Positions 1 through 58,981 of a DNA stretch of 64,000 nt are shown here, piece by piece. The notes under the pieces are model-generated. The model was not told the origin of the DNA, ran no database searches, and was given only the letters and a program-made list of their open reading frames with translations. Each line of letters begins with the position of its first letter. Positions within the stretch are counted from its first letter, which is position 1. The stretch is from NCBI GenBank assembly GCA_001599295.1, contig BCGN01000006.1, positions 1,116,001 to 1,180,000 of the forward strand. The letters run 5' to 3'. The translations under genes were made by a program, and so were the position numbers. This DNA comes from Sporopachydermia quercuum (lineage: Eukaryota).

Positions 1-304
1 TTTAATTAGCATACAAATAATAGAATTTTTAATTGCTGTAGCTTCAACAGACATAGACAGGTATGATCAACCACCCGTACTATTACATGTAAAGTGCATA
101 CTTTTTCATGCATGAATTATGCATATATTTAAGTATATGCACACCTTATTTCAGACCCTAAACACCAACTCTAATATTGGAAACTTCATTGTAAGAGCAA
201 ACCCTATTTTTATTCCTTTTATCGCGTTACGTTAACCCATGTTAACCTATGAATTATNCCTTCTAATCAATTAAATAACATCCAGTAAAATAGTGTTTAA
301 ATAT

Positions 305-528
305 GTAAGTCATGCAATNCTACTGCATAAACAAATACTGAACACGCCTTATTACTACGGCTCAAACGATTTGCAGATTCGTCTAATTCCAGCAGGTTAT
401 CTACGATTCTGGCCTTTCTTTCCCCATGTCAATCCTGTCATACCCTGTCCTAAANATTGATTAGTTAAGCAAAGTTCTTAGGTGATACAGGCTAACTTAT
501 ATATATATTTCTTTATTCTCACTCTTAG
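305..528 (+). other. Probable 5' (UTR) spliceosomal intron of the bZIP gene
   Basis: GTAAGT at 305, branch-like GCTAAC at 491-496, a pyrimidine tract, and TAG ending at 528, one base before ATG 530. The donor choice is uncertain. Confidence 0.45.
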
Positions 529-529
529 A

Positions 530-1153
530 ATGACAGGAAACACCAGGAAAAGAACTCTGCAAGATGAAGAAGAAAATAGGGAGATAGAAAACATGGATAG
601 AGCATTCGCAGCTTACTATAAAACAGGATCACTGATAACCAAACAAGTACCCGCTTTACAAGATTCAAGAGCTGATGCTTTGGCCACAGTACCATTAGGA
701 CTTCCAAACAGAAAAATGAACATTCAGGAAGCTACAATTGACTCAAGAGAAGGACCTGTTGCACCTTTGGGCGTTAATCTACTGAAAACCAACAGTTCAG
801 GCAATATTCAGAAGCGAGGCAAAGGAAGACCTGCCTCTGACCTATCACAGGAACTGAAAGTCATGAAAAGAAGGGAGCAGCTAAGGGAGGCTCAGAAAAA
901 CTACAGGAAACGGGCAGGTAAGCAAACCGAGACAAATATTAAGCTGCAGGAAGAAAATAGTAGACTGAAAGAGCTTTTAACGAGAATAAGCAAAGCACAA
1001 CTTGATTTATTCAAGGAAGAACTCAGTAGATTATCAACAGATGACGGGGACGAAAAGCAGAAATTAATAGACTCAATAGCCGATATTCAGCAGAGGATTT
1101 TAACTGAGGTTACATTAATAGAAAGTTTTGACGGGTCATCCACAGCAGCATAA
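530..1153 (+). CDS. Putative bZIP-like transcription factor with AT-hook-like motif (~207 aa from ATG 530)
   Basis: KRGKGRP AT-hook-like motif, then a basic region KRREQLREAQKNYRKR and a Leu heptad coil (LQEENSRLKELLTRI). The first ATG is at 530; the track's GTG start lies in a likely intron. Confidence 0.65.
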   Translation: MTGNTRKRTLQDEEENREIENMDRAFAAYYKTGSLITKQVPALQDSRADALATVPLGLPNRKMNIQEATIDSREGPVAPLGVNLLKTNSSGNIQKRGKGRPASDLSQELKVMKRREQLREAQKNYRKRAGKQTETNIKLQEENSRLKELLTRISKAQLDLFKEELSRLSTDDGDEKQKLIDSIADIQQRILTEVTLIESFDGSSTAA

Positions 1154-1234
1154 TTACAGTAATAGAATGAATTATGTATACATATTAACGAGCAATTAAC
1201 GAGTAATTAACAGCAATGAAGTATCTATATACTG

Positions 1235-4200
1235 TTAATAATCAATCAATCGATCCAAAATATGAAGGTTATCGATCAAAAAACTTGCGGCTTTAGAAGC
1301 AGCAACCTTTTTATTTATATCAAAAGCATAAACAACGGGCTTTTTCTCTACCAAAATCGTACATTTACAACAGAATATTTTTCCCTTCACAGGTTCATAA
1401 AGTAATTCGGCGGACTGATCTTCTTAACCCCCAAATGTGCATATAAGATATTCCTGGCATCGTTATTTATCTCCTGGTTTTCAGGTACTTACTGCTAAAT
1501 TCAGTGAATTACTAAAGGAAATATCAGAATCTGCCATGCTTTCAGAGTAATCACTATTGGAATCAAATTCATCAATATTCCCAATGGTGTCACTATGATA
1601 CTTATCTAGTGAATCCCTGTTCTCCCTCTCATTTTCTTCTATGTATGGAAGGTAAAGCTTTGATTGGTCTGAATAATCCAATAAGCTCTCTTTATAACCG
1701 AATTATACAACAGTATCAGTATCAGATTTAGCTGACATATATTTCAATAGTCTTGGAAGTTTGGCTTTATTTTTACTCTTCATATGACCAGTTCCATACT
1801 GTTCAACCTAATTGTTTGCTTTCTTTAATGCATTCATTGCTGCTCTAGTACTAGCATCTTTTATGCTATTGCCCGTACCTATTCCTATTACGTTATCATC
1901 CATTCTGCACTCAACAACAGTTGCAAGTCTCATGCCATCACCTTGAGCGACCGTTTCATATTTTGGTGCAAGGTTTGGGCATGCTATCAAGTTATATAGT
2001 CGCTGCTTGGCATGTCTTTCTAGCGGAGCCACCGAATTGATCATATCCTCATGTTCCTTAAGAATAGGACCAGTGAGAACTTCAATCCATTGTTTGATAC
2101 ACGTCAGATCGAAATTACGATCAACCGCTAAACCTCCAATGTATGCTTCAAATACATCAGCAAATATCTTCTTGGAACTGTATTCAATGGAGTTTTTGGT
2201 TATATTTGCATGAAGTTTTTTATCTAGCCCATAAAGCTGGGACCATCGTATCAACTGTTCATTACATACTAATGATGCTCGTATCATACTTAGATCTCCT
2301 TCTGAGCATTTAGGGAACCTTTCAAAGATAATAGGAGTAACAACACTACCAAGAATGGAATCCCCTATGAATTCTAACCTTTGGTTATATTTTTCGAGCT
2401 TCTCTGCATCGCTCAAGTTGATGAAAGGTGCTATCATAGAACTATGGGTGAATACTTGTTTGTAGATAGCTTTATTGGTGATTACAGGNAGATTGGGAGG
2501 GAAGCTTGTGCCTGGGTCATAGGATTCGAATCTGAATGATACTTCTGACTGTTTTGTTAGTGGATTATAGAAGATTGAACCTGTTGCAGTTTTTTTAGAG
2601 GCACTGAATAGTTGATCATTAGACATTTCAACATTATCGCTGCTATTGAGCCTGGTGAGCACCTGATGGGCAGGATTCTCAGAAATTACTTTATGGGCAT
2701 GCTCGCTATTCGATAGCTTAAACATCTTTTTAACTAATGATGATTTCTCATTAGCAGCTGTAGATAGCCATGGAAATGCATCAGCAGCAATACAAGATAA
2801 AGTGTCTTCTGGATCACCTTCAATAATCTGATTGACCCTAGTAGACAATTGTAAGATTACATGGAGCTGATCTTTGGTTACGTCTAGTCGATCCGCAAGA
2901 TGTTTGAAATACTGTGTAGAACATAATTTGGATAAGTGGTCTGGTACTAAAGGTAATTCTCTCATGATCGATAATTAATCATGAATATTCTGCATGGCAC
3001 TGGATAGTTTTGTGATGTTCTTTGCTTTCAAATTTTCAGGTGGTTTATTACTAGATGTAAATGTAGAGTTAATAGAATTTAATTTGCTGCTATAGTTATG
3101 ATTACCATTAACGATACCATTGCTATTGTTTTGATAGGTATTGGCATCCATAGAACTGGCAGAATCTCTTGATATCTTTTCCTGGTGTCTGGAATATCCT
3201 TGGGTACTGTTGCCATTGCTACTACTATTGTTATTGGAGGAAATTGTCGTTATGCTTTCTAGTGAATTAGAGATCTCTAGACTGACTGGAGAACACGACA
3301 NNAGAAATCGACGTCGGTGCTGTAGCTGTTGAGGTTTCCGCTACTGAAGAAATATTCTCTTTTGTTCTTTTCCTTATTTTCGTTTCTTTTATTGATTTGT
3401 CCATAGGAATATGCTTTGGTTTAGATTTAGAATCTGCTTGCTTCTTATCATTCGACGATGCAGCTTAGTCACTCTTATCTTTTTTACTTTCAGATGAATG
3501 TGTTTCGTTTCCTCTGTGTTTCCCGTTAGTATTGCTGTTGTTCTTCTTGGATTGATTAGCATCATCATCATCATCACTATTACTCTTCTTTATTCGTGGA
3601 CCTAGTAAATTATTGACTAAAGGAGTGAAATTTTTGAAGTTGAACATGATGTCTTTTGAGTCCTCTTTATCGCTGTGATCTGAGCTTTCCGGGCGAGATG
3701 ATTTATGCGATGACTGCGAATGATAACGTGAATTAGAACGTGAATAGGAAGACGTTGAAGTATCTAAATCACTTCGTGCATCAAAAACGTCTAATTCACC
3801 TATCAGGCTCTTCACTCGTTTAGAAGTTTTGTTCTTTTTTTTTATTTATATTTTGAACAGTTTCCTTCGAATAGGTATCTTCAATTTCTTGGTCGATTTC
3901 TTGTTGACTGTCAGAATTGTTATCTTTTTTCTTTTTTTCTATGGCTAGGGTTTTTCTTAAGGATTTTGCTAAGGCTTTCGTTAAAGCTTTCGTTATCAAT
4001 TCCTTGCTCGCTCTCTTCTTCTTCTATTTCTATAACTTCTTTATACACATTGTCATTTACAAGCTCAGGCGTAGACTCGCTTCTATTACTNGTATCAGTA
4101 TCTCTATCTTTATAGTATAAATCACTCTTAGCAACTTCTTCTAGAGATATAAGATCTTCTTCTGCACTACCAAAAAAATCATTAAACAATAGAGATACTT

Positions 4201-4641
4201 TCTCACAAATCCACTTTCAAAATTCTTTTTCTTCCTCTTACTAGAACTATGGGTATTATTATTATACTTCCTTCTCTTTTGCTGCTTTGGCCGTTCTTCT
4301 GATATTAATTTTAACCTCTGACTATCAGGTATTTCATTATTATTGTTATTACTGTCATTATCATCGTATAACAATTCACCTTTGGGGCCTTTATTATTAC
4401 TTTCACCATTATTATGCAAATCGTCAGTCTTATCAGAAAGAAAAATACTAAATGTCCGATTAGCCAAATTTATGGTAGTTGCAGCTTCGCCTGGTGAACT
4501 GTTTCTTCCATTTGAATCATTGCTGGTAAAATCAAATGGCAATTGAAATATTTTGTTGGTCGTTGTGCTGGTAGTAGAAGAGCTAGGATTATTACTGCTA
4601 GGGCTTTCCACTGAGTTAAAGGTAAAATTCAGCCGATCCAT
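1235..4641 (-). pseudogene. DCR1: Disrupted budding-yeast Dicer-type RNase III gene (low-complexity N-terminus, NTD, RNase III, dsRBD1, linker, dsRBD2)
   Basis: RNase III signatures QRLEFIGDS, LVCNEQ and KIFADVFEAYIG. dsRBD1 is HAKQRLYNLI...GTGNSIKDASTRAAMNAL. Manual translation of 1235-1490 gives a second dsRBD (NDARNILYAHLGVKKISPPNY / YEPVKGKIFCCKCTIL...YAFDINKKVAASKAASFLIDN..DY*). In-frame stops at 3465, 2975, 1808 and 1703; frameshifts near 4200, 3930, 3840, 3301, 1489 and 1400. Confidence 0.8.
1808..2965 (-). CDS. Residual open core ORF of the RNase III gene (partial NTD + RNase III + dsRBD1, 385 aa); may or may not be expressed
   Basis: Uninterrupted ORF bounded by the TAA at 2975 and the TAG at 1808. 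Catalytic-position residues E/D (LEFIGD), N (LVCNE) and K/D/E (KIFADVFE) are retained. Confidence 0.5.
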   Translation of the reverse strand: MRELPLVPDHLSKLCSTQYFKHLADRLDVTKDQLHVILQLSTRVNQIIEGDPEDTLSCIAADAFPWLSTAANEKSSLVKKMFKLSNSEHAHKVISENPAHQVLTRLNSSDNVEMSNDQLFSASKKTATGSIFYNPLTKQSEVSFRFESYDPGTSFPPNXPVITNKAIYKQVFTHSSMIAPFINLSDAEKLEKYNQRLEFIGDSILGSVVTPIIFERFPKCSEGDLSMIRASLVCNEQLIRWSQLYGLDKKLHANITKNSIEYSSKKIFADVFEAYIGGLAVDRNFDLTCIKQWIEVLTGPILKEHEDMINSVAPLERHAKQRLYNLIACPNLAPKYETVAQGDGMRLATVVECRMDDNVIGIGTGNSIKDASTRAAMNALKKANN

Positions 4642-7370
4642 ATTGTTGGGCCTGAGGGCAAAGTAGATGAAATAAACTGATCACTTACCAGGTGCTTTTC
4701 GGGCGCTTAACTGGTAAACATGCAGAAGGAACTGATAGCAATTCTTGTTGGTCGGTTCATCCGATTATCTTTGAATTGAAGAATTCCGCATAGGTGAAAA
4801 CTATGCTTCTATTATTCAATCTTTCATTCCAATCTGATTTCCTAATGGAAGGTGTTGTTTTCTGCTCGTTGATATTCTGCGTTGTATATGAGAATAGGAT
4901 GCAGGTTTCGATAGCACTTACTGACGTTTGTGTCCCAAAAATTGATAGAAATAGGCAAGAAGAAAAACAAAAACCAGTTGAAATGGAGATAATGGATAGT
5001 GGTTATCCCAGTAGTTAAACGCGCAACTACTAAATAGGTAGCGATGACCAAAAAATGAATAGCAAGCAAATAAAACCAAGTAGAGGTTATTTCAGGGGGG
5101 TTAGTTAGAACGTCTAGATAGATCTTGATCAATTGATGATAGCTGGTAAACTAAATATGTACTAAACAGTAAGCCTGCTCAATTTTATGAATAATGATTT
5201 CATTGAGTGTAAACCATGTTAGAAGTATTGTGCTTACAATGAGTCGGTGAATTAAGTAGAGGAAAGGGCCATCAAGACGAGAAGAGACAGGAAGAAAGCA
5301 CAGATTACGTTATCTGGAAAAGATAAGACCTGGTGAGTTAATGATTAGGTGATCTGAAATAGAATATGACGAGGAGATGAAGATGTGGGAAAAGAGCAGA
5401 ACATTTGTTGATGCTTCTGAAGTCCTGTGCCGGATTCAAGTGGAGTTGCAAGGAAAATGGTTATTGNATGAAGGGAGAAGGCCCAGATAGCTTGTTTGTA
5501 AGAGATATTACCGTGCGTTTAGGATGGCGAAATGTGATCTCTACAACAATTGACGTTAGAACTTAGAATTTGAACCCTTCATTGAAGGATAGTGGCTTTA
5601 GAAAGCTGGTCAGAAGATAGGATGTTTTCCTATTAAATAAAACCATCAATTGAATAGCCTGAGGTAGCCATGGAGCCCTATTCTATCTAAGCACTGGCTT
5701 CTGCCCCACTGAGACTTTCAATGATCTGTTATAACTTAGCAACTATATCTCAACAAACTACACATTGTATACTATAAACTTCCAAGCTAGTTGACATAAC
5801 CTTATCTTTCCTGACTATCAAATCTATTTACCCCATTTCTTCAAAGAAGCAATTGAGTCCAGTATCTAGTCGCCAACGGTTTCCTGCGTATCTATACGCT
5901 GATTTATGCAATGATATGCAAGGATCACCCAAAGAAGCAAAAACACCGGCCATAACCCAGCCAGGAAACTATAACCTTAAAATAGTGAACTTTAGTTTGC
6001 AGCAAGTCTTTCGTTAGGCATCACAAGATCATAACTTAGAATGTACATACAATGATAAAAAAACTTAAACTTCAACAAAACTGCAATATAATGTTTCTTG
6101 ACATAATTGTTGATAACAGCTAGTGTTTTCGGTAAATTTCTTTATTTTAAACCTGCTGTAAAGTAATCTACTTTTTAATCTGTCTATTGTTCCATGTTGA
6201 TTTTGACAAATCCTTTTACCTTAAGTTTAAACGTACAACCTTATTACATAACCTTCCTTACATCTAAATTAGCAAATCAGATAAATCCTCTTGAAACTTT
6301 GTTCAACAAACGCTCAACTATTTATTCGTTGATTAGAATAGCTATTTCTTTCGTTCTTACTTTTTTAGCGAATGTAGTCGACGTAATATTGAAGAAAATG
6401 TCTATTATAACTGTCTGTAGCATACTTGTGATTTACCAGGTATCTTGATTATCTCAGCCGCATTATTCTCTTACTTTTATACGTACATAGCTAGAATTGA
6501 TTCTTTAATTCCAGCCCTGCTGATAAAGCTATCCCACCTGAGACTTTAACCCAACTCATCAACGTCATATCCATCATCGATCGTAGTGAAAGCCATGCTA
6601 CAGGAATGAAACTTGTCATCTGGAAATGACTCTGAAAAATTGAATTGACGAAGAGTTCAGTGAGCTTCAGAGAAAATAATGATCTGAATTGATTCAAAGG
6701 TTTGGTATGATTCGCTGCGTTGTAATTGTANGTTCTGAGAATGAATTGTAGTTGGACAGCAGATAAGAAGTTCAGNTATCCTAATATGAGTGTAGTGCTA
6801 TCCTGTTAGTAATATACTATTAATACCACAGTNTTGGTGCACTTCCGAATTATAAAAAGTTATAAATGATAGCAATAGGGAACTACAAAATCCTGTTCTT
6901 CATGTCATGNGAATACAATCGATCCGAATTGAACTCATTGAATTGAACCTGTGGAACTGAATTTAACTGAATTTAACTGAATTGTACTAGTAATACTATG
7001 TCCGCAATACTACTCACGTCAATTATGGAAGGTAAACATATATCGTACCTCGTTAGACCATGCTTATTTCTATATACCAATATTTCCTATAACCTGTTGT
7101 ATACATACAACAAATGTACTATCAACTACGGCCGCGACCTTACTTGTTGCTCACTTAAAACCATTCCTTAGAAATGCTCTTCATAATCCTTGGGATCAAA
7201 TATCATGATAAGATCTACTGCAATGTCTACATTTAAACAACTTTCAATATAATATAATATAAAATAATATCAAAATAACATTATCTAACTTGAAATAGAA
7301 ACTAAAAGAAAATCAAAACCGCCAACCATTATATAAAAATTGTAAAGCAAATAAATCTATCCTTCATTCT

Positions 7371-8909: not shown

Positions 8910-11360
8910 TTTGTTGTATTGAATTGGATTAGTGTGCAATGATACTATACTATCTTGTAGTAGAATTCAAAATATCAACAATTATACGTTGTTCTGTTAA
9001 ATAAATCCTAAGGTTCTTGATAGTAGAAGGGAAGTGTTTTTCCTGAACTCACTTAATAGAACCAATGAAGAATAATTGACGATTGATGATATAGAAGAGA
9101 AGTTTAGAATAATAGACAAATTGTATTAGAACTGTTTGACTTGAAATGAAGGACATCTACTGGTATTTATATCTGGATTCCACGGCCTTTGGTATAGATA
9201 GGATAAAAAATAATGGTTTGGAAAAAAACGTAAGCAAAGATGCTCCAGCATTTGATAGCTAGAACAGAAATTTTCTGTTTTATTTAATTTTATCGGGAAA
9301 CTGTCTTTAAACTCAAACCTTAAATAAAGTGTGAACTAAAAGAAAGAAAGTTTAAATAATAGTCAAATATTTAGAAATAAAGTTTTAAGTTCAATACATA
9401 TTAGCCTTAAGCAACCAAAAGACGTGAAGTAAAATGCCGGAAGCAGCATGCTTAACATTTTGCAGTAACAAGCCTAATGTTGTAGAAGAACAACCGATTG
9501 CATTGACTGTCAATGATGAAGGAGCAATCTTTTTAAACAGCAAACAAGGGTCAGCTAAGTTGAAGCTCAGAAAAGCGCATTTAGTATGATAGTGGCGGTA
9601 TCGTCAAAGTAAATTTACGATTCAGCGTAAGTTAAGTAGATCCATAAACTCCAGGATTAATTAATTTCATACATAATCGTTATAGCCAAAGAGTTTTTCG
9701 GGTAATACTTTACTGAAATCACACTGTGATCAGCGACGTTATGTTCATAAGGTTACCAACCAAGGGAATAGATAAAGAACTCAAATTCAATGAAAAGTCA
9801 TTATATCTCTTTCTGTTCCTTCTAGTTTAAAATCTGATACTTCGTTCCTCACCCAAAATTAAGGTTTAAGTTTATGGAAAAATCCGATGAAGCATATTCT
9901 CCCTCCATAATAAAGTTAACATTTGGCTTGGCAGATGCCCTTTGCCTGTCTTTCACTTCGATTCTGAGACGAGTTATCTCTAGAGGCTGAAGGGTGTAAC
10001 AACTTTAAACTACATATAATACATGTACAAATCACTTTTGGTATTCTATGCTACTTTTGGTTAACCAAATAAGGTAACCGTTCATTTGGTATCATTATTG
10101 ATGATAGATAGATAGGTAATGAAATTTGATTAGTATGAAGAAAACAAATATAGACTGTTTGATGGTTTGCTTTCAAAGCGTTGAAGAGGTGTGCTATGAC
10201 ACCTAGAAGCTGTTTATTGGGTGTTCAGTCTTGGAAGAGGTACAATGGATGAGATCTATCTTACAAACAGTAAAATGAAGAGTTGAAATAAAACATATAC
10301 TCATTATTGGTGCTCTTGCAATCTCTAGTTGACACCAAGAAATATAACTGCAGCCATATATGGGGTAGCTCAAAATGAAATAACAAATCAAGTCAAATGT
10401 ATATAGAAATACGTACTAATATCTTTAAACCTCCATTAATGCATTTACGTCAAATTAGTTCTATTTCATTTTCGTAATCACTGGGATCAAAACAGTGGAA
10501 TATCATTAAGTTTTCACTATTTAGTTTCGATTCACACGGTATAACACAACAACTTGTCTGGCTTTAGTTTCTTCCATAGCATCTATTGATGAAAATTGTT
10601 GTCCTCATTAGAACATGGAAATTTCCGTATATTTATTTTTTCTCGTTGTTAATTTTCTCCTAGGCTGATCCTAGGAGAAAGTGTTACAGTTAAACAATTA
10701 TAGTTTCGCTAATGAGAACTTTAATTGTCTGCCTTGGAAGTAATCNTTTCAGGGTTATTATCGGATTTTTCCATTTTTGAAGAAGCAATTATTCAGCAAT
10801 TGAGCAAGTTTACTTCGTTCAAGTATCTTAAACAATATTATAAAGAGTACAATATAAGAGAAAGTAAATGGCATTTTGACATTTAGATTCTATAAGCTTC
10901 GGAAATACTGAATAAGGTTNAATAAATACAAAGATGAGAATATATTCTTTCTCAGTTTGTTGCAATAGCTTTATCAGTAGGCATGCTGCTGCCATCATAG
11001 TCGCTATAGCTGTCTAAACTGAAGTATCGATTTCTTCTTTATCATCTAAGTAATTGAATTTGATTTCTACCTTCCTGATCTGGGAAATATACCTATCAAA
11101 GTTTGAAGGAACTAGTCTAAACTGTACTTTTCTAGTATACATGCGAAACCGTATTTGAAAACTTAATTGACTAGAAGAAAAAGGTTAGTACTGCTACATT
11201 AATTATTATTATATGGTACTTTGGTTAGTAGTCAGAAATATCGGGCAAGAAGTTGTTTACAAGTATTTTGACATTGATAGTTTCATGGAATTCAATTACA
11301 AGTTAGAAAACTGTCAAAAAAGTTCTTGGTGAAGTTGAAGGAAAGAGTACCTTTTCATTC

Positions 11361-11515
11361 GTTCTACTCATCGGAAAATTCCATTAGAACAATCAAAGAA
11401 AGGGAAAAGAACCAATTGTTTGGTTTCTACTCAACGGAAAGTTCCAGTAGAACAATCAACGGGAGAGCACTAATCCATTGTTCAACTCATCGGAAAAATC
11501 CAGTAGAGCAAATAA
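11361..11515. repeat. Three imperfect tandem copies (period 63/56 bp) of a ~36 bp quasi-palindromic core
   Basis: gttctactcatcggaaaattccattagaacaatcaa (11361), tttctactcaacggaaagttccagtagaacaatcaa (11424), gttcaactcatcggaaaaatccagtagagcaaataa (11480). Confidence 0.85.
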
Positions 11516-14500
11516 CAGATCTTAAATGCTCTGTTGTGAAAACCACAATTGAATTTAGAACAGAATAGTAAATACTATCAAGAAATGAGAAGGTTAGAGT
11601 GCAAATGAACAACTGTTTGNCTAATCTGTTTGAACATATTATCATTCAATCAAATGAAACAAAAACCTTTTTTCTTTGAAAATTGAGGACTAGAGATAAT
11701 ATGGTTTTCTAATTATGGTATTGAGATGCTGAAAACTAGTACAGTTAGAATAAAAGTAATACTTCAACATTTCTCTGGTCACGCAACAAAAGATTGTTGC
11801 GTCGATACTCAACACATTTGTGTGCTGTTTTCGATTGTAGNATCCTAATCTTTGCTCAACAATCCTAATTTCTCCTTTGTGTAAGCTATGTGTAAGAGNA
11901 GCTTCCTTTGCTGGCACAGTCATATTACATTATTCGAGCCTCTACTTCGTCAATANNAGAAATAAAATAATATTGCTTGTTTGTGGCATTAATTAAAAAA
12001 TACCTTTTTGAATTTGACTGCTATTCTTTGGCCAATGCTTCCGGTCAGCAATGTTTTCCGAGCTATAAATCATTTCCATTCCAAAATATTGTACTACCAG
12101 ATTTTCAGCCTCACAGTAAGTTTGAAATAACTCACGGGCTTCTTACTACCTGAGACCTTCTAGATTGTCATTTCACTTACAGATTTGCTATATATTCATT
12201 TCCATACATCTATTATGAAAGAGAGATTAAAGCACGGAAATTTCCTTCATAATGAAATGAGATAAAGTTATAATGTAGATTCTGACCCGAACTAAACCGA
12301 AATACTGCTTTGAACTTTAAATGTATTAGAACTTTATTGATGCATCTTCTGACACCAAATTTCAAACCGTTCTTGATTTTGGAAATTCTTTGTTATTTTA
12401 TTTCGCAAGTTAAATAAACAGGGAAATTTTGAAAATTATACTATAATAATGCCTTTAAAGTTGATTTATCAAGGATCAGTTTCTGAATGGTTGAGATTAT
12501 TATCCAACGAACTTAAATAAGGTAATCCCCACTATTGATTCTTNAGTCTGAAACTAATACCANTAGTATTATCGGAAGAGATTGAAATATAAAGATTACA
12601 GGCAGTCTCTGTCTGTTGGTATGTAAAATAATATATATTTTAAGTAGAATTATCAAGATTATCACCGGTAGGCGAAATGAAAGATCTTTTGATTCGACAC
12701 CTACTTCTAGTCGTAGAATATAGAAATGAAACTAGCAACATTATCACTCAATTGAAGACTCACTAAACACGCTAGCATTNTTTNCTTTTTGAATATATTA
12801 TACTTTGAGCTTTTACTAAAATATTTATATAATNGAAATCTGGTGTCGATTAATGTGTGTGATTTCCACTACGACGATAAAGTGAAATTTTCATTAATNG
12901 AAGTCAACAAACGAACAGCATTTCGTTACTNCNAACTAACTATAATATTCCGAGACAGCAATATATCGTTTTATCTTTTTCAATAAATATTCTTTAACTG
13001 TATCATTTTTATTTCAGTTTAAAAATTAGTTGATCTATTCGACAAATGATATTTAATGTACGAGTCGCATTCAACATCTTGTCGTGAAAAAGATTAAAGT
13101 TTACCAGTAGANAAATCATCGAAGTTTAATTGATGAACTTAAATTTAACTTGGTATTCGGTGAATGGAGAGCATCTCGATAACATATGCAGAGATACTCT
13201 ATGATTACATTGACATTTTAGAAAAAAAATACATATCAAACATTATATGAGAAGTGAAGAACAAATAAAATAATAAAATACAAGGATACAGGAAATAAGA
13301 AAAGTAATTTTTGAAAGTGAAATAACAATTCTCGAGTCCTTATTACTAACGGTTATCAATATGATTATGTTCATAGTTGAAGAAANATTCATCAGTCATA
13401 ATTATGAAATTAACTGATCTTGCTAATTCAATACTAAGGAATGATTTAACTGATTTAATAAATTTAATGTATTTGAACCAACGNCTACAAATAATCTTTG
13501 TCTTAATACACATTTATATATTCTTCCTACTAATGTTAATTAACTAAAAAAATGAACTTGTAGGTTTTTAAACTTATGGAATTACACAACTAGTTTAATG
13601 TGACACTGAATTCTTATTCTAAGAAGGACTGGGCAGCTTGATAAAATAGAATAAAGAGTTGATTTTAAGAAGTATCTCTTTAACCTATATTATATACTAA
13701 GAGAATGGAAAGAATCTATCTGTTCACTAAGAATTGACCTGAGGTGGAATTTTTTTCCACTAAGGAATAGTGAGAGAGCTTCTTAGACCATTGAAGCACA
13801 ATAGCTTGAGCTAATTTTAAAATTGGCTATAGGTCTTGAAGTCCAGATCTGAAAGAAACTTCNTATATTAATTATAACGATAGAACTATTTGTTNGAAGG
13901 ATTTAACCCGTTTACTAGTAACGTTCAAGAATCATCAACATATAAAATCTCTTTGTTGATGGTACTGTGAAGAGGATCAAAAGAGGATTTTATTCAAATC
14001 CTTGTAGGTGTACACTATTTCAGTTTTGAATCGGAGTNTCGATAAAGAAATGCATGTCCCTTGGCATCATGATTGATAAGCAAATCAAATCTTTGGGATA
14101 GTGAGATTGGAATTCTCCTAACACTATATTGCGATAAGGTTTTCATAAAGATTCCTTCTCTAAGACGTCAGGNGAAAATCTACTCCTACAACACTGTTAC
14201 TCAATTGTTACAGTTGCATCAGAGCCATCCATTCACATAGAGCAACACGATTACTTTTGTTTTATCCATCATTCAGTTGGTTGTATAACTATTAAGAATT
14301 ATTTTTACTTTCACTTCGTTTATCAGACTAACTTTTTCCTTTAACGGCGTATATGCTTTAATATTGTCTTTAGTTTCAATTTTGCGAAACCAGTTAGGTT
14401 TAAAGCGCGAATTTGCTGATCGTTTATCAGCAAATTGCGGCAGCTGAAACAAACTAAGCTGTGAAATAATTAAAATAGAACAAAAGAATTAAAATCAATT

Positions 14501-15163
14501 AATTTTATTATATTCATTATGCGCAGAAAAAAGATGTTTGCAAATTCAAGTAAAGCTGTAGATGATTGGTGTTAATATTGTTTATTTGTGAATTAACTTG
14601 CCTGATTGAAGAAGTTCTTTCTTAATAAAGTTAGAACCTTATGCTCTTTCTATATAAAGGTTCAACTTCTAAAACAGGTGAAATCATATTGGCCTTTTAA
14701 CAACATTACTAAAATCTAGGAAATTTCCGGGGATTTTATTCATTTCTGAATATTTTAGATATTCAGAAGTAAAAGCAGTAAGGAAATAAACTTATTCTGC
14801 AAACAAATCGCTGGCCATGCTTTTGTTTCGGTCAATAATACCAAGCTTCTACATGGTTTTCAAATTAAAGTTTAGCCATTTAAGCTTCCTCGGAAGCTAG
14901 ACAAACACATAGTCGGCGACCCATATATTCGACTCCCACTAAATTTAACTTTACGCCTCACCCGGTACATCAAATGAAGAACTTAAATTATGCTTTCTAA
15001 ACTTCATTTCAGGTGTCTTTGGTTCAATGTTAAGATGCTATAATTCGTCAATGCTTTTCTTCTAATGAAAATTAAAATCAATAAATCAAGCAGTAAAAGT
15101 TTTAAATATAACGAAATTTGACAGAAGCTAATTGTCGATTACAATTATTATGATTGAAACGTT

Positions 15164-49510: not shown

Positions 49511-50729
49511 TCATAATAAACCATATTTTTCCTTATCAAAATGTTCTAATGACTGTAGAATCTCCCCTCTATCAGCAATAATCGCATGTTCCTCACCATT
49601 AAGAGCTTTCAAGGCTCCTTCGTGAGGNACCCATATAACTGTGCAGCCTGCTAGCTTTCCTGCTTCTACTCCGGCGACGCCATCTTCAAATACTAAGCAT
49701 TCTTCAGGTTCTATGGTTTCTAAGCCAAGCTCCTGAATTTCTTTATTCAGACTTTCCAACGCAGCAAACCAAATATCAGGAAATGGTTTTCCTCGACCTC
49801 TAGGTACCCTTGGGTCGTCTCCTACAACTATATGCTCACCAAAGAGATTGAATCCATGCTTCAAATGAGCTGTTTTTAGGTCAAAGTTTCTTTTCTGGGA
49901 GGACGTTGCTAAAGCAAATGGAATACCCTTTTCTTTCAGGTAAGTTAGCAGTTCCAAAGCACCAGGAAGAAATTCGACGTTTGACCAGATCTCAGTCTAT
50001 AAAATGAGAGTCTTTTGTTAGTAAGAGCGGAAGAACAGGATAGGTTGTTTAACATTATAATAACATACCTGTATTTTAGTAGTCCTTGCAAATAGTTCAA
50101 GAGGATCTAAAGGCAGGTCATATGATTCAATCAGCACTTTAGTAGCCTGAAGAAAAGTTAGTATATGGAACTCCAGGTAGTGGTAGCATGTAAAGCACTG
50201 GTCTTTCATTCTGCTTTAATCAGCAGCAATTGGTTGATCCATATTGGCAGAAAATGGTTCCTTTTTCAAATAGTTCAATTCGTACCTCTGGTCCTGGTCT
50301 TCCTTGCAGTTTGATTTTGACGTCCCAAGATAAAGGACCCTTTCCATACTCTTTCAGTACTTCATTGGTGGCCATTGTATACATCTCCTCAGAGTTGATC
50401 AAGAGACCATCCATGTCTATATCAGAAAATAGGTGTTAGATATTGGGTGGGGCTTATTATAGGAACATATCCATAAAATTAGCTAAAATATGGTAAAACA
50501 TACCAAAAAGACAGGCTTTTATTTGTCTATACACGTGTTAGTTATGTTTAATGGCAAGGCATAGCAAAGACAAAGTTGCTATTACTAGCGACAAGATAAT
50601 GATAATAGGATCAAAGTATGGGGACTATTGGGAATACAGAACTCGATGTTGAATGTTTAGTGAATAACTAAATACATATAAATGTATTATGATCCCAGAT
50701 TGTTTGTTTTATACATACTTTGTAACCAT
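49511..50729 (-). CDS. HAD-superfamily pseudouridine-5'-phosphatase (YKL033W-A/HDHD1-like); 5 exons (50729-50719, 50526-50504, 50416-50286, 50146-50069, 49996-49511)
   Basis: Spliced product MVTKQIKACLFDMDGLLINSE..LQGRPGPEA..FLPGALELL..ATSS..GKPFPDIW..VFEDG. All four introns have GT..branch..AG with consistent phases. Confidence 0.9.
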
Positions 50730-58606: not shown

Positions 58607-58744
58607 TTGAGGCTTTGAATCATCTTGGATTATCTCATTTTCATGCACAATCTTGGCAATAATCAACTGATTGATCCATTAACATAACAACAGATCACAT
58701 ATAAATAACCAAATCAAATCGTTATCTCAATTCTAATAGTAACA

Positions 58745-58981
58745 ATGGCTGGAACTGAATGTTGCAATAAATCTACTGCTAATACTTGCGTGTGTGCTCG
58801 AGAAGCTAAATGTTCATGCGGGGCCCAAGCCGCTCAGCATTGCACTTGCGAAAAGGCTCCTGTTGAAAACGTGAAACCTCAAGGAAAGTCATGTTCATGT
58901 GGTATGCGAAATGCCAATGAATGTACTTGCTCCCGAGCTGCTGAAGAAAATACTGAAATAGATTTCACATACTCTAAATAA
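58745..58981 (+). CDS. CRD2: Crd2-type fungal metallothionein (78 aa)
   Basis: CVC, CSCG, CTC, CSCG and CTC motifs with a VEN linker and EIDFT C-terminus, matching the Candida Crd2 pattern. Confidence 0.85.
   Translation: MAGTECCNKSTANTCVCAREAKCSCGAQAAQHCTCEKAPVENVKPQGKSCSCGMRNANECTCSRAAEENTEIDFTYSK

What the first reader, a model, noticed from the sequence alone, without database searches (positions are those of the whole stretch)
1235..4641. Budding-yeast Dicer caught in decay: candidate recent loss of RNAi
Seen in sequence: five separate minus-strand track ORFs plus unannotated pieces form one reading frame of roughly 1,130 codons. It is interrupted by 4 in-frame stops (TAA 3465, TAA 2975, TAG 1808, TAA 1703) and about 6 frameshifts (near 4200, 3930, 3840, the NN at 3301, 1489, 1400). 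The 2.5-2.8 kb ORFs elsewhere in the window have no such breaks, which argues against general assembly error. Established: budding-yeast Dcr1 has NTD + RNase III + two dsRBDs, S. cerevisiae Rnt1 has one dsRBD, and RNAi has been lost repeatedly in budding yeasts. Inference: this is a young DCR1-type pseudogene, recording RNAi loss in progress.
Basis: partly seen in the sequence, partly recalled or inferred. Interest (0 to 1): 0.85.

Follow-up and report, generated by a model that had tools for sequence, protein, structure and literature searches.

The report
Yeast RNase III losing its Dicer tail
A budding-yeast RNase III gene of the two-dsRBD (Dicer-like) type has its catalytic core intact, but its second RNA-binding domain and a long upstream coding stretch are broken, so it looks like a truncated enzyme rather than a simply dead Dicer gene.

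Summary
There are four in-frame stops and six frameshift zones on the minus strand between 4641 and 1235. Contigs of three read sets from two studies (23-97x) carry them.

The lesions are not spread evenly. A 385-codon ORF (2965-1808) is unbroken and covers a helical N-terminal region, the RNase III domain and dsRBD1. It keeps 43 of 44 strongly conserved family columns, including the four metal-site acids. A lesion-free core under uniform decay has P of about 0.02.

Two things are destroyed:
- The C-terminal part: the conserved segment after dsRBD1, the linker, and a second dsRBD that is still recognisable in two different frames.
- 1.67 kb of upstream sequence that looks coding but has no detectable relative.

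My best reading (about 0.5) is a natural truncation of a two-dsRBD Rnt1/Dcr1-type enzyme, resembling the engineered C. albicans dcr1-RNAi allele. A wholly dead paralogue remains possible (about 0.33).

Trees cannot assign the gene to DCR1 or RNT1. The rest of the genome could not be searched, so AGO1 status and RNAi loss are untested.

The parts
1808..2965 (-). Intact 385-codon ORF (ATG 2965, TAG 1808-1810). It holds an N-terminal helical region, the RNase III domain and dsRBD1.
   Evidence: Searches give the ORF. One search gives the Pfam hits; 43 of 44 columns conserved at >=80% are kept. AF2 pLDDT is above 90 from about residue 150 to 385.
2645..2917 (-). N-terminal helical region (residues 17-107), at the place of the Rnt1/Dcr1 N-terminal domain.
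   Evidence: five helices at pLDDT 50-74; no PF18497 hit at E<=1, although the relatives P0025, P0027, P0028 and P0060 all hit it.
2117..2383 (-). RNase III catalytic domain. The signature reads NQRLEFIGD, and the four metal-site acids are present.
   Evidence: PF00636 3.1e-19, PF14622 5.4e-16; catalytic columns E, D, D, E are intact. The only change is E to Q at the first signature glutamate, shared with six other rows, among them the Ascoidea enzyme P0095.
1820..2008 (-). First dsRNA-binding domain (dsRBD1).
   Evidence: PF00035 6.5e-8. Foldseek to Rnt1p 4oog_C, TM (target) 0.81, rmsd 2.3 A.
1808..1810 (-). TAG stop three codons after dsRBD1. It falls just before the family-wide conserved segment that follows dsRBD1.
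   Evidence: alignment. Present in all three read sets.
1706..1807 (-). Piece H, 34 codons in frame with the core. It still shows the conserved pattern after dsRBD1 (..EQY..KLPR against the family's IEKY..R..PR).
   Evidence: alignment; 0.42 bits per codon.
1703..1705 (-). In-frame TAA.
1484..1702 (-). Piece I, the acidic/Ser-rich linker (73 codons), in frame with the core. It ends at TGA 1481-1483.
   Evidence: 0.41 bits per codon.
1390..1488 (-). Piece J, the N-terminal half of the second dsRBD (helix 1 and the P-x-Y motif), one base out of frame with I and K.
   Evidence: 16.0 bits, E 0.0011 against all 1422 six-frame pieces of the window, using a profile of 41 homologue tails.
1238..1423 (-). 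Piece K, the C-terminal half of the second dsRBD (strands plus the KKxAxxxAA helix). The native-looking stop is TAA 1235-1237.
   Evidence: 30.4 bits, E 4.2e-8; tblastn hits from P0007, P0032 and P0057 (P0047 and P0050 hit the adjoining 1390-1536 stretch).
2975..4641 (-). Upstream coding-like wreck, pieces A-F, about 555 codons from ATG 4641. It is rich in Ser, Asn, Asp, Glu and Lys. It has three frameshifts, one frameshift at or near NN 3301-3302, TAA 3465-3467, and it ends at TAA 2975-2977, 7 nt before ATG 2965.
   Evidence: 0.31-0.48 bits per codon. No relatives found. X3 carries an extra TGA and an extra frameshift in piece A.

Best explanation
**What it was.** The locus is a member of the budding-yeast Rnt1/Dcr1 family of single-domain RNase III enzymes. 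Its ancestor had the two-dsRBD ('non-canonical Dicer') architecture, about 576 codons from ATG 2965 to TAA 1235.

**What happened.** A TAG at 1808 now ends translation three residues after dsRBD1. Everything behind it has since picked up a second stop and two opposite 1-nt frameshifts. That includes the conserved segment after dsRBD1, the linker and dsRBD2.

**What is left.** The remaining 385-codon ORF (helical N-terminal region, RNase III domain, dsRBD1) is intact and is most likely still under selection. I infer that it still makes a dimeric dsRNA endonuclease.

**Likely consequence (inferred, not shown).** The enzyme keeps housekeeping, Rnt1-like RNA processing. It has lost the module that non-canonical yeast Dicers need for RNAi in vivo.

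**The upstream stretch.** The 1.67 kb upstream is recently decayed coding sequence of unknown identity. It is either a lineage-specific N-terminal extension or a separate dead gene. I cannot tell which.
For: **Shown.**
- The ORF and its domains.
- 43 of 44 columns conserved at >=80% among 142 relatives are kept. That is 1 mismatch against a median of 3 over the 143 rows.
- All four metal-site acids are intact. The one change, E to Q, also occurs in six other rows, five of them with all four acids intact, among them Ascoidea P0095.
- The AF2 core has pLDDT above 90. The best structural match is Rnt1p (TM 0.75-0.81, rmsd 2.3-2.8 A), followed by P. stipitis Dicer.
- The dsRBD2 relic is significant in two frames, in the right order (30.4 and 16.0 bits; the next best of the 1422 pieces scores 9.1).
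- Lesion placement: all 4 stops and 5-6 frameshifts fall outside the core, P 0.018-0.027 under uniform decay. Using the tail alone against the core gives 0.017. The core itself holds homopolymer runs of 5-7 bases.
- Extra disabling changes in X3 lie only in the upstream wreck.
- 85 of the 157 relatives that blastp aligned have tails of >=90 aa after dsRBD1, mostly 115-140 aa, so two dsRBDs is the common state outside Saccharomycetaceae Rnt1.

**From papers.**
- In C. albicans, a stop after Pro512 that removes dsRBD2 gives a viable, slower-growing strain with 21-23-nt sRNAs dramatically reduced. DCR1 itself could not be deleted (PMC11047096, passages).
- Bernstein et al. proposed that loss of a dsRBD could turn a bifunctional enzyme into an Rnt1 type (PMC3579876, whole text).
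Against: - The TAG falls before a segment (IEKY..R..PR) that is conserved in all 54 aligned relatives, including single-dsRBD Rnt1-clade proteins. The truncated protein therefore lacks something that every relative keeps. From recall, in Rnt1p this region forms a third helix that supports dsRBD binding. The review read here says only that the C-terminal portion next to the dsRBD binds Gar1p (PMC3867540, passages).
- The N-terminal region gives no PF18497 hit.
- The terminal branch is long: 1.53 against a median of 0.6.
- P of about 0.02 is not negligible, and the core's boundaries are partly defined by the lesions themselves.
- There is no expression data. No promoter is evident, because the ORF is preceded within 7 nt by the end of an open frame.
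- Whether another RNase III exists in the genome is unknown.
- All read sets may come from one strain.
Confidence: 0.5

Rival explanations
1. The whole locus is a young unitary or duplicate pseudogene. A dedicated Dicer-type or redundant RNase III paralogue has lost all function, the core is lesion-free only by chance, and another RNase III elsewhere does the essential processing.
For: - There are nine to ten disabling lesions in 3.4 kb, all confirmed in reads.
- The TAG removes a segment conserved in every relative.
- Codon signal is equally strong in the broken pieces, so the decay is recent and a clean core is conceivable.
- Second RNase III paralogues are common in budding yeasts: two in Spathaspora passalidarum, and long and short forms in Wickerhamomyces.
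- The terminal branch is long.
- RNAi has been lost at least five times in Saccharomycetaceae (PMC4629796, passages).
Against: - P is about 0.02 for no lesion in 1158 nt, given the density in the flanks.
- The core is more conservative than the median relative.
- It keeps all the catalytic acids, unlike degenerate paralogues such as P0072, P0139 and P0073.
- An ATG sits right at the family-typical N-terminus.
Confidence: 0.33
2. The lesions are assembly or sequencing artefacts and the gene is intact in the organism.
For: - The window carries 65 N letters.
- One frameshift zone holds an NN.
- Three zones lie at A6-A9 runs, and the A9 run differs by one base between read sets.
Against: - Three contig sets at 23-97x agree on every stop and on frame-changing lengths everywhere except 3834 and 4308, and neither difference restores a frame.
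- Four of the lesions are substitutions to stop codons.
- Long ORFs elsewhere are clean.
Confidence: 0.03
3. The full-length protein is still made through introns, stop read-through or programmed frameshifting.
For: A GTAAGT lies at the I/J boundary. Removing 19 nt there would join the frames. This is my own reading of the sequence.
Against: - A 19-nt intron is far below yeast intron sizes (established knowledge).
- No branch-point-like TACTAAC is seen.
- Four separate events would be needed in the tail alone.
- TAG and TAA both act as ordinary stops of the other ORFs.
Confidence: 0.02

Closest known systems
Candida albicans Dcr1 (CaDcr1) and 'Dicer from Pichia stipitis' (PDB 7DEY): bifunctional Rnt1/Dcr1-type RNase III of CTG-clade yeasts
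   Same: - The ancestral architecture is the same: N-terminal region, one RNase III domain and two dsRBDs.
- The core scores 163.8 bits to 7dey.
- The nearest named relatives at 42-45% identity are CTG-clade, Babjeviella and Pachysolen proteins.
   Different: - Here the second dsRBD is broken and the ORF stops right after dsRBD1.
- Orthology is unresolved.
- Function and the Argonaute partner are untested.
Engineered C. albicans dcr1-RNAi allele (stop after Pro512, dsRBD2 removed; Iracane et al. 2024, PMC11047096)
   Same: A premature stop removes dsRBD2 while leaving the RNase III domain and dsRBD1. In the laboratory allele this separates the essential Rnt1-like function from RNAi (passages).
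   Different: - This case is natural, not engineered.
- Here the stop lies earlier and also removes the conserved segment behind dsRBD1.
- The phenotype is unknown.
Saccharomyces cerevisiae Rnt1p (PDB 4OOG, 5T16)
   Same: - It is the best sequence and structure match of the surviving core: 167.7 bits, TM 0.75-0.81, 40-41% identity.
- The surviving ORF has the same single-dsRBD layout.
   Different: - Rnt1-clade proteins keep 37-124 residues after dsRBD1, including the conserved IEKY..R..PR segment. This ORF keeps three.
- The N-terminal domain is not recognised by PF18497.
- A dsRBD2 relic follows the gene.
Saccharomycetaceae Dcr1 (N. castellii, K. polysporus 3RV0, Torulaspora, Kazachstania)
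   Same: One RNase III domain and two dsRBDs. RNAi has been lost repeatedly in that family.
   Different: - Similarity is lower: 113.9 bits to 3rv0.
- That clade is separate with 100/100 support, and the query lies outside it in the free tree. Forcing it in is not rejected (p 0.42).
Cdl1 (Candida Dicer-like 1) and the short Wickerhamomyces paralogues
   Same: They are second RNase III copies with a reduced role. The Wickerhamomyces forms have short tails of 40-45 aa.
   Different: Those carry substitutions at metal-site residues: P0072 D to N, and P0139 D to T plus E to K. Cdl1 is described the same way in PMC3579876. The ORF here keeps all four acids.
RNAi gene pseudogenes of Cryptococcus deuterogattii (Feretzaki et al. 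2016, PMC4778953)
   Same: It is a fungal precedent for loss of the RNAi pathway in a lineage. I saw only the search listing and the start of the abstract, which does not itself mention pseudogenes.
   Different: It is a basidiomycete with canonical Dicers, and I did not read its details.

Membership tests
RNase III, yeast Rnt1/Dcr1 family (single nuclease domain plus dsRBD) | RNase III signature motif with the four metal-binding acidic residues | tested here: met
   PF00636 3.1e-19. The E, D, D, E columns are intact. The only change is E to Q at the first signature glutamate, which five other rows with otherwise intact sites also carry.
RNase III, yeast Rnt1/Dcr1 family (single nuclease domain plus dsRBD) | dsRBD directly after the nuclease domain | tested here: met
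   PF00035 6.5e-8 at residues 323-385 of the 388-aa translation. The modelled fold superposes on Rnt1p.
RNase III, yeast Rnt1/Dcr1 family (single nuclease domain plus dsRBD) | N-terminal dimerisation domain (Pfam RNase_3_N, PF18497) | tested here: inconclusive
   There is no PF18497 hit at E<=1, while 4 of 4 relatives tested hit it. The AF2 model shows five helices at residues 17-107, but only at pLDDT 50-74.
Budding-yeast non-canonical Dicer (Dcr1 type) | Second, C-terminal dsRBD: was it present in the ancestor of this gene? | tested here: met
   The two halves were found in adjacent pieces J and K (16.0 and 30.4 bits; background maximum 9.1 among 1422 pieces).
Budding-yeast non-canonical Dicer (Dcr1 type) | Second dsRBD intact and in frame with the enzyme today | tested here: not met
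   TAG 1808, TAA 1703 and two frameshifts separate it from the core. All are confirmed in three read sets.
Budding-yeast non-canonical Dicer (Dcr1 type) | Groups with characterised Dcr1 proteins in a tree | tested here: inconclusive
   The query sits in a polytomy in the careful tree. The AU test does not reject grouping with the Saccharomycetaceae Dcr1 clade (p 0.42).
Budding-yeast non-canonical Dicer (Dcr1 type) | Argonaute in the same genome, and 22-23-nt siRNAs | not testable with these tools
   No genome is held. No RNA run is listed. No Argonaute-family Pfam hit among the 16 long ORFs of the window that were scanned.
Rnt1 (single-dsRBD processing RNase III) | Groups with the Rnt1 clade | tested here: inconclusive
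   The query is not inside the Rnt1 clade (99/98 support) in the free tree. The constrained tree is slightly better than the free one, AU p 0.59.
Rnt1 (single-dsRBD processing RNase III) | Conserved C-terminal segment after the dsRBD is retained | tested here: not met
   The ORF ends three residues after dsRBD1. The conserved IEKY..R..PR segment lies behind the TAG, in piece H.
Cdl1-like catalytically dead paralogue | Substitutions at metal-binding residues | tested here: not met
   All four acids are present.
Pseudogene (whole gene) | Disabling lesions within the conserved catalytic core | tested here: not met
   There is no stop or frameshift in 1811-2965. 43 of 44 conserved columns are kept.

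The most novel reading that the evidence does not exclude
This is the organism's only active RNase III, caught midway in turning from a bifunctional two-dsRBD Rnt1/Dcr1 enzyme into a single-dsRBD, Rnt1-only enzyme through a natural stop codon. The relic of dsRBD2 is still legible. That would make it a living intermediate for the 'loss of a dsRBD' route in Model 2 of Bernstein, Vyas and Fink (2012), and a natural counterpart of the engineered RNAi-specific dcr1 allele. It would imply a very recent loss of RNAi in this lineage.
Probability: 0.3. Interest if true: 0.7.

Novelty: new variant of a known kind. Interest (0 to 1): 0.45.

Why it matters
**The open question.** How budding yeasts came to have Rnt1 alone, Rnt1 plus Dcr1, or one bifunctional enzyme is unresolved. 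Bernstein et al. could not choose between two models.

**What is known.** RNAi loss in yeasts is known so far from presence or absence of whole genes. In the passages I saw of Wolfe 2015, and in the listings of two literature searches, no relic of a budding-yeast Dicer-type gene is described. Full texts were mostly not read, so this is not proof that none is in print.

**What this locus could offer.** The Dicer-specific dsRBD2 is freshly broken while the catalytic core stays pristine. That would give a dated, natural separation-of-function allele. It would show that the essential and the RNAi functions can be uncoupled in nature by one stop codon, and it would point to a lineage where RNAi was lost recently enough to study what followed (transposons, dsRNA viruses).

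**If it is only a dead paralogue.** Then it is an ordinary pseudogene of modest interest.

Tried and rejected
- **Whole-genome search for AGO1 and other RNase III genes.** No genome is held for this window, so this was not possible.
- **RNA evidence.** No RNA holder was listed.
- **Earlier notes of this scan.** Nothing for this genome, this sequence or these words.
- **Exact look-up of four window proteins.** None is in the collection.
- **Naming the organism.** VPS54 has its best hit at only 31% (Komagataella). PRS3 is 79-80% identical to Wickerhamomyces, Pachysolen and Lachancea alike, and 72-75% to Lipomyces, Saccharomycopsis and Geotrichum. It is a budding yeast without a close annotated relative, and I can place it no further. 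There are no tRNA genes in the window.
- **Identity of the upstream pieces A-F.**
  - Pfam gave only a weak, below-threshold Vac7 hit (17.4 bits, cutoff 28.7), which I take as low-complexity noise.
  - tblastn with 171 relatives gave one weak hit, E 0.006.
  - A profile of 91 homologue heads gave nothing.
  - The ESM Atlas gave no usable hit for pieces A and D.
- **Phylogenetic assignment to DCR1 or RNT1.** Unresolved.
- **Intron rescue of the I/J shift.** Rejected, because the candidate intron is only 19 nt.
- **N letters as a guide to constraint.** 11 of 65 lie in long ORFs and 6 of those 11 at third codon positions. Only one lies in the core, which is too few to use.
- **A second RNase III copy in the window.** None. 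0 of 187 tblastn HSPs lie outside 1-5000.
- **Weinberg 2011 (PMC3169304).** Not held. Its statement on dsRBD2 is cited only through PMC11047096.
Full report
**Observation**

The minus strand between 4641 and 1235 is tiled by eleven open pieces (A-K).
- The six frame changes are there too, near 4200, 3930, 3840, within 3270-3340 around the NN, near 1489 and near 1400.
- G, H, I and K share one frame and J is one base off, so the two shifts in the tail are of opposite sign.

The pieces are former coding sequence, not chance open frames. On a codon-usage model trained on 14 intact ORFs of the window, each piece scores 0.30-0.48 bits per codon in its own frame. Real coding windows score 0.32 +/- 0.14. 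The 358 intergenic windows have a mean of -0.29 and a maximum of 0.27.

**Are the lesions real?**

One search for sequencing runs found three DNA data sets of the same coded organism: X1 and X2 from one sample, and X3 from a second study.
- Laid on 1150-4750, each gives one contig across the whole stretch, at word depths 97.5, 22.8 and 33.
- The only differences are an extra T behind 3834 (X2, X3; the A9 run on the minus strand), and in X3 alone an extra T behind 4308 and A>C at 4313.
- By my reading of the frames, neither indel restores a frame. The two X3 changes turn a TTA of piece A into TGA and add a frameshift.
- No second, diverged allele contig was laid.

These runs may be the source of the window and may all be one strain. 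They rule out low-coverage error but are not an independent isolate. Elsewhere in the window, six ORFs of 704-939 codons are clean. A scan for other coding-like multi-piece wrecks found none. The decay is therefore specific to this locus.

**What the gene is**

Piece G holds PF00636 (3.1e-19), PF14622 (5.4e-16) and one dsrm domain (6.5e-8).
- A full HMMER scan of 1.84 billion representatives found 11,661 relatives with E <= 0.001. The best is only 42% identical over all matched stretches; blastp gives it 45.9%.
- Named nearest relatives are RNase III proteins of Babjeviella, Pachysolen, Australozyma, [Candida] railenensis, [Candida] subhashii and Spathaspora.
- Against solved structures, the core scores 167.7 bits to S. 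cerevisiae Rnt1p, 163.8 to 7DEY and 113.9 to K. polysporus Dcr1. Foldseek titles 7DEY 'Dicer from Pichia stipitis'.
- An AlphaFold model built on 52 sequences has pLDDT above 90 from about residue 150 to 385. It superposes best on Rnt1p (TM 0.75-0.81, rmsd 2.3-2.8 A).

**The second dsRBD**
- Of 157 relatives that blastp aligned, 85 carry 90 or more residues behind dsRBD1, typically 115-140. Pfam finds two dsrm stretches in P0025 and P0027.
- I ran a profile of 41 such tails against all 1422 six-frame pieces of the window. It hits piece K (1238-1423) at 30.4 bits (E 4.2e-8) and piece J (1390-1488) at 16.0 bits (E 0.0011).
- The best unrelated piece scores 9.1 bits. The cross-hit on dsRBD1 scores 37.3.
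- J carries helix 1 and the P-x-Y motif. K carries the strands and the KKxAxxxAA helix.

The ancestor therefore had the two-dsRBD architecture that Bernstein, Vyas and Fink give as the mark of non-canonical yeast Dicers as against Rnt1 (PMC3579876, read whole). From ATG 2965 to TAA 1235 the gene measures about 576 codons, within the 505-603 range of its nearest relatives.

**The core is not decaying**

Piece G contains a complete ORF: ATG 2965 to TAG 1808, 385 codons.
- Of the 44 alignment columns conserved at 80% or more among 142 relatives, it keeps 43. That is one mismatch, where the median row has three.
- The four metal-site acids are present.
- The single change is E to Q at the first glutamate of the signature. 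Six other rows also have Q there, five of them with all four acids intact: Ascoidea rubescens P0095, P0112, and the long proteins P0155 and P0157 among them. Naming that position after Aquifex E37 is from recall.
- By contrast the short Wickerhamomyces paralogues, and several other rows, have replaced metal-site residues. Cdl1 is described the same way in PMC3579876.

I asked how likely it is that all lesions miss the core if the whole 3.4 kb were decaying uniformly.
- By nonsense target size, P is 0.21 for the four stops.
- By length, P is 0.13-0.086 for five or six frameshifts.
- Together that is 0.018-0.027. Using the tail alone against the core gives 0.017.
- The core has homopolymer runs of 5-7 bases, so it is not short of slippage sites.

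This is moderately strong evidence that the core is, or until very recently was, under selection. It is not decisive, because the core's limits are set by the lesions themselves.

**What speaks against a working truncated enzyme**
- The TAG lies three residues after dsRBD1. It falls in front of a segment (IEKY..R..PR) conserved in all 54 aligned relatives, including Rnt1-clade proteins with one dsRBD. Piece H still shows that pattern.
- The truncated protein would thus lack something every relative keeps.
- The N-terminal region is not recognised by PF18497, although four of four relatives tested are. It is modelled as five helices at only pLDDT 50-74.
- There is no expression evidence.

**Dcr1 or Rnt1?**

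A quick tree of 143 rows and a careful tree of 65 rows (LG+C20) both leave the query on a long branch in an unresolved part of the Saccharomycotina radiation.
- It lies outside the Saccharomycetaceae Dcr1 clade (100/100 support; Torulaspora and Kazachstania named).
- It also lies outside the clade of Saccharomycetaceae Rnt1 plus long Phaffomycetaceae enzymes (99/98 support).
- AU tests reject neither forced grouping: p 0.42 with Dcr1 and p 0.59 with Rnt1, where the constrained tree was slightly better than the free one.

Orthology is therefore open, as it was for CaDcr1 in Bernstein et al.

**The upstream 1.67 kb**

Pieces A-F are rich in Ser, Asn, Asp, Glu and Lys and have no detectable relative.
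- For one ancestral ORF: F is in frame with G and ends 7 nt before ATG 2965, and some relatives have N-terminal extensions of 250-400 residues.
- For a separate dead gene: the RNase III gene already has family-typical length and an N-terminus at ATG 2965.

I leave this open at roughly even odds. Either way this part is dead, since X3 carries further disabling changes in it.

**Mechanism proposed**

The facts shown are an intact core, a broken tail and a family-typical ancestor.

My inference is that a stop codon cut a two-dsRBD Rnt1/Dcr1-type enzyme behind dsRBD1, and that the tail then decayed neutrally while the core stayed selected for RNA processing.

The closest experimental parallel is the C. 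albicans dcr1-RNAi allele.
- A stop after Pro512 removes dsRBD2.
- The strain is viable but slower growing.
- 21-23-nt 5'-U sRNAs are dramatically reduced.
- Full deletion of DCR1 could not be obtained (PMC11047096, passages).

If the same holds here, the lineage lost Dicer function while keeping the essential function. That is the 'loss of a dsRBD' step that Bernstein et al. considered under their Model 2.

**What remains untested**

Whether RNAi is gone, whether AGO1 exists, and whether another RNase III is present could not be tested. No genome is held for this window and no RNA run was listed. The window itself holds no second RNase III, and no Argonaute-family Pfam hit turned up among the 16 long ORFs scanned.

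**Verdict**

My odds are:
- truncated but still selected RNase III: about 0.5;
- wholly dead paralogue: about 0.33;
- artefact or recoding: about 0.05;
- the rest unassigned.

It is a new variant of a known kind. Interest is moderate, and would rise to about 0.7 if this proves to be the sole RNase III of the genome.

Noticed in passing
window 8950-15100: About 6 kb with no coding-like ORF. GC is 29-34% in the 2-kb windows of 10-16 kb (29-32% in 10-14 kb), and 22 of the window's 65 N letters lie there. It could be a large intergenic, pericentromeric or repeat-poor AT-rich region.
   Followed up: no
window, all N letters: The 65 N letters (62 sites) are mostly single bases. 54 of them lie outside the long ORFs, although ORFs make up 44% of the window. 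Of the 11 inside ORFs, 6 are at third codon positions. They look like masked polymorphic or ambiguous sites rather than gaps.
   Followed up: partly
window 4308-4313 and 3834: Read set X3 differs from the window by an inserted base and a substitution 5 bp apart in piece A, which together create a TGA and a frameshift. X2 and X3 have one more base in the A9 run at 3834. This is either strain polymorphism in dead sequence or local consensus error.
   Followed up: partly
window 530-1153 (+) and 1184-1217: A 207-codon ORF with a basic-region/coiled-coil look and no Pfam family above threshold converges on the RNase III gene. Only 81 nt separate the two stop codons. That spacer holds a 3.2-copy 11-nt tandem repeat, ATTAACGAGCA.
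   Followed up: no
window 58709-58978 (+): A 90-codon open frame rich in Cys (C-x-C and CC motifs) that looks like a metallothionein.
   Followed up: no
window 49514-49996 (-): A 161-codon coding-like open frame with an HAD-phosphatase-like sequence. It was not in the ATG-started ORF list of >=150 aa, so it may have a later start or an intron.
   Followed up: no
proteins P0072, P0083, P0139 (Wickerhamomyces and a Logan relative): Phaffomycetaceae carry a short second RNase III (417-434 aa, 40-45 residues after dsRBD1). P0072 has D to N at a metal site, and P0139 has D to T and E to K. These look like Cdl1-type dead paralogues outside the CTG clade, alongside a long two-dsRBD enzyme (P0071, P0009).
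   Followed up: partly
protein P0095 (Ascoidea rubescens) against the window ORF: Both have Q instead of E at the first glutamate of the RNase III signature (NQRLEF), with the rest of the site intact. The quick tree loosely joined them (86 SH-aLRT) but the careful tree did not.
   Followed up: partly
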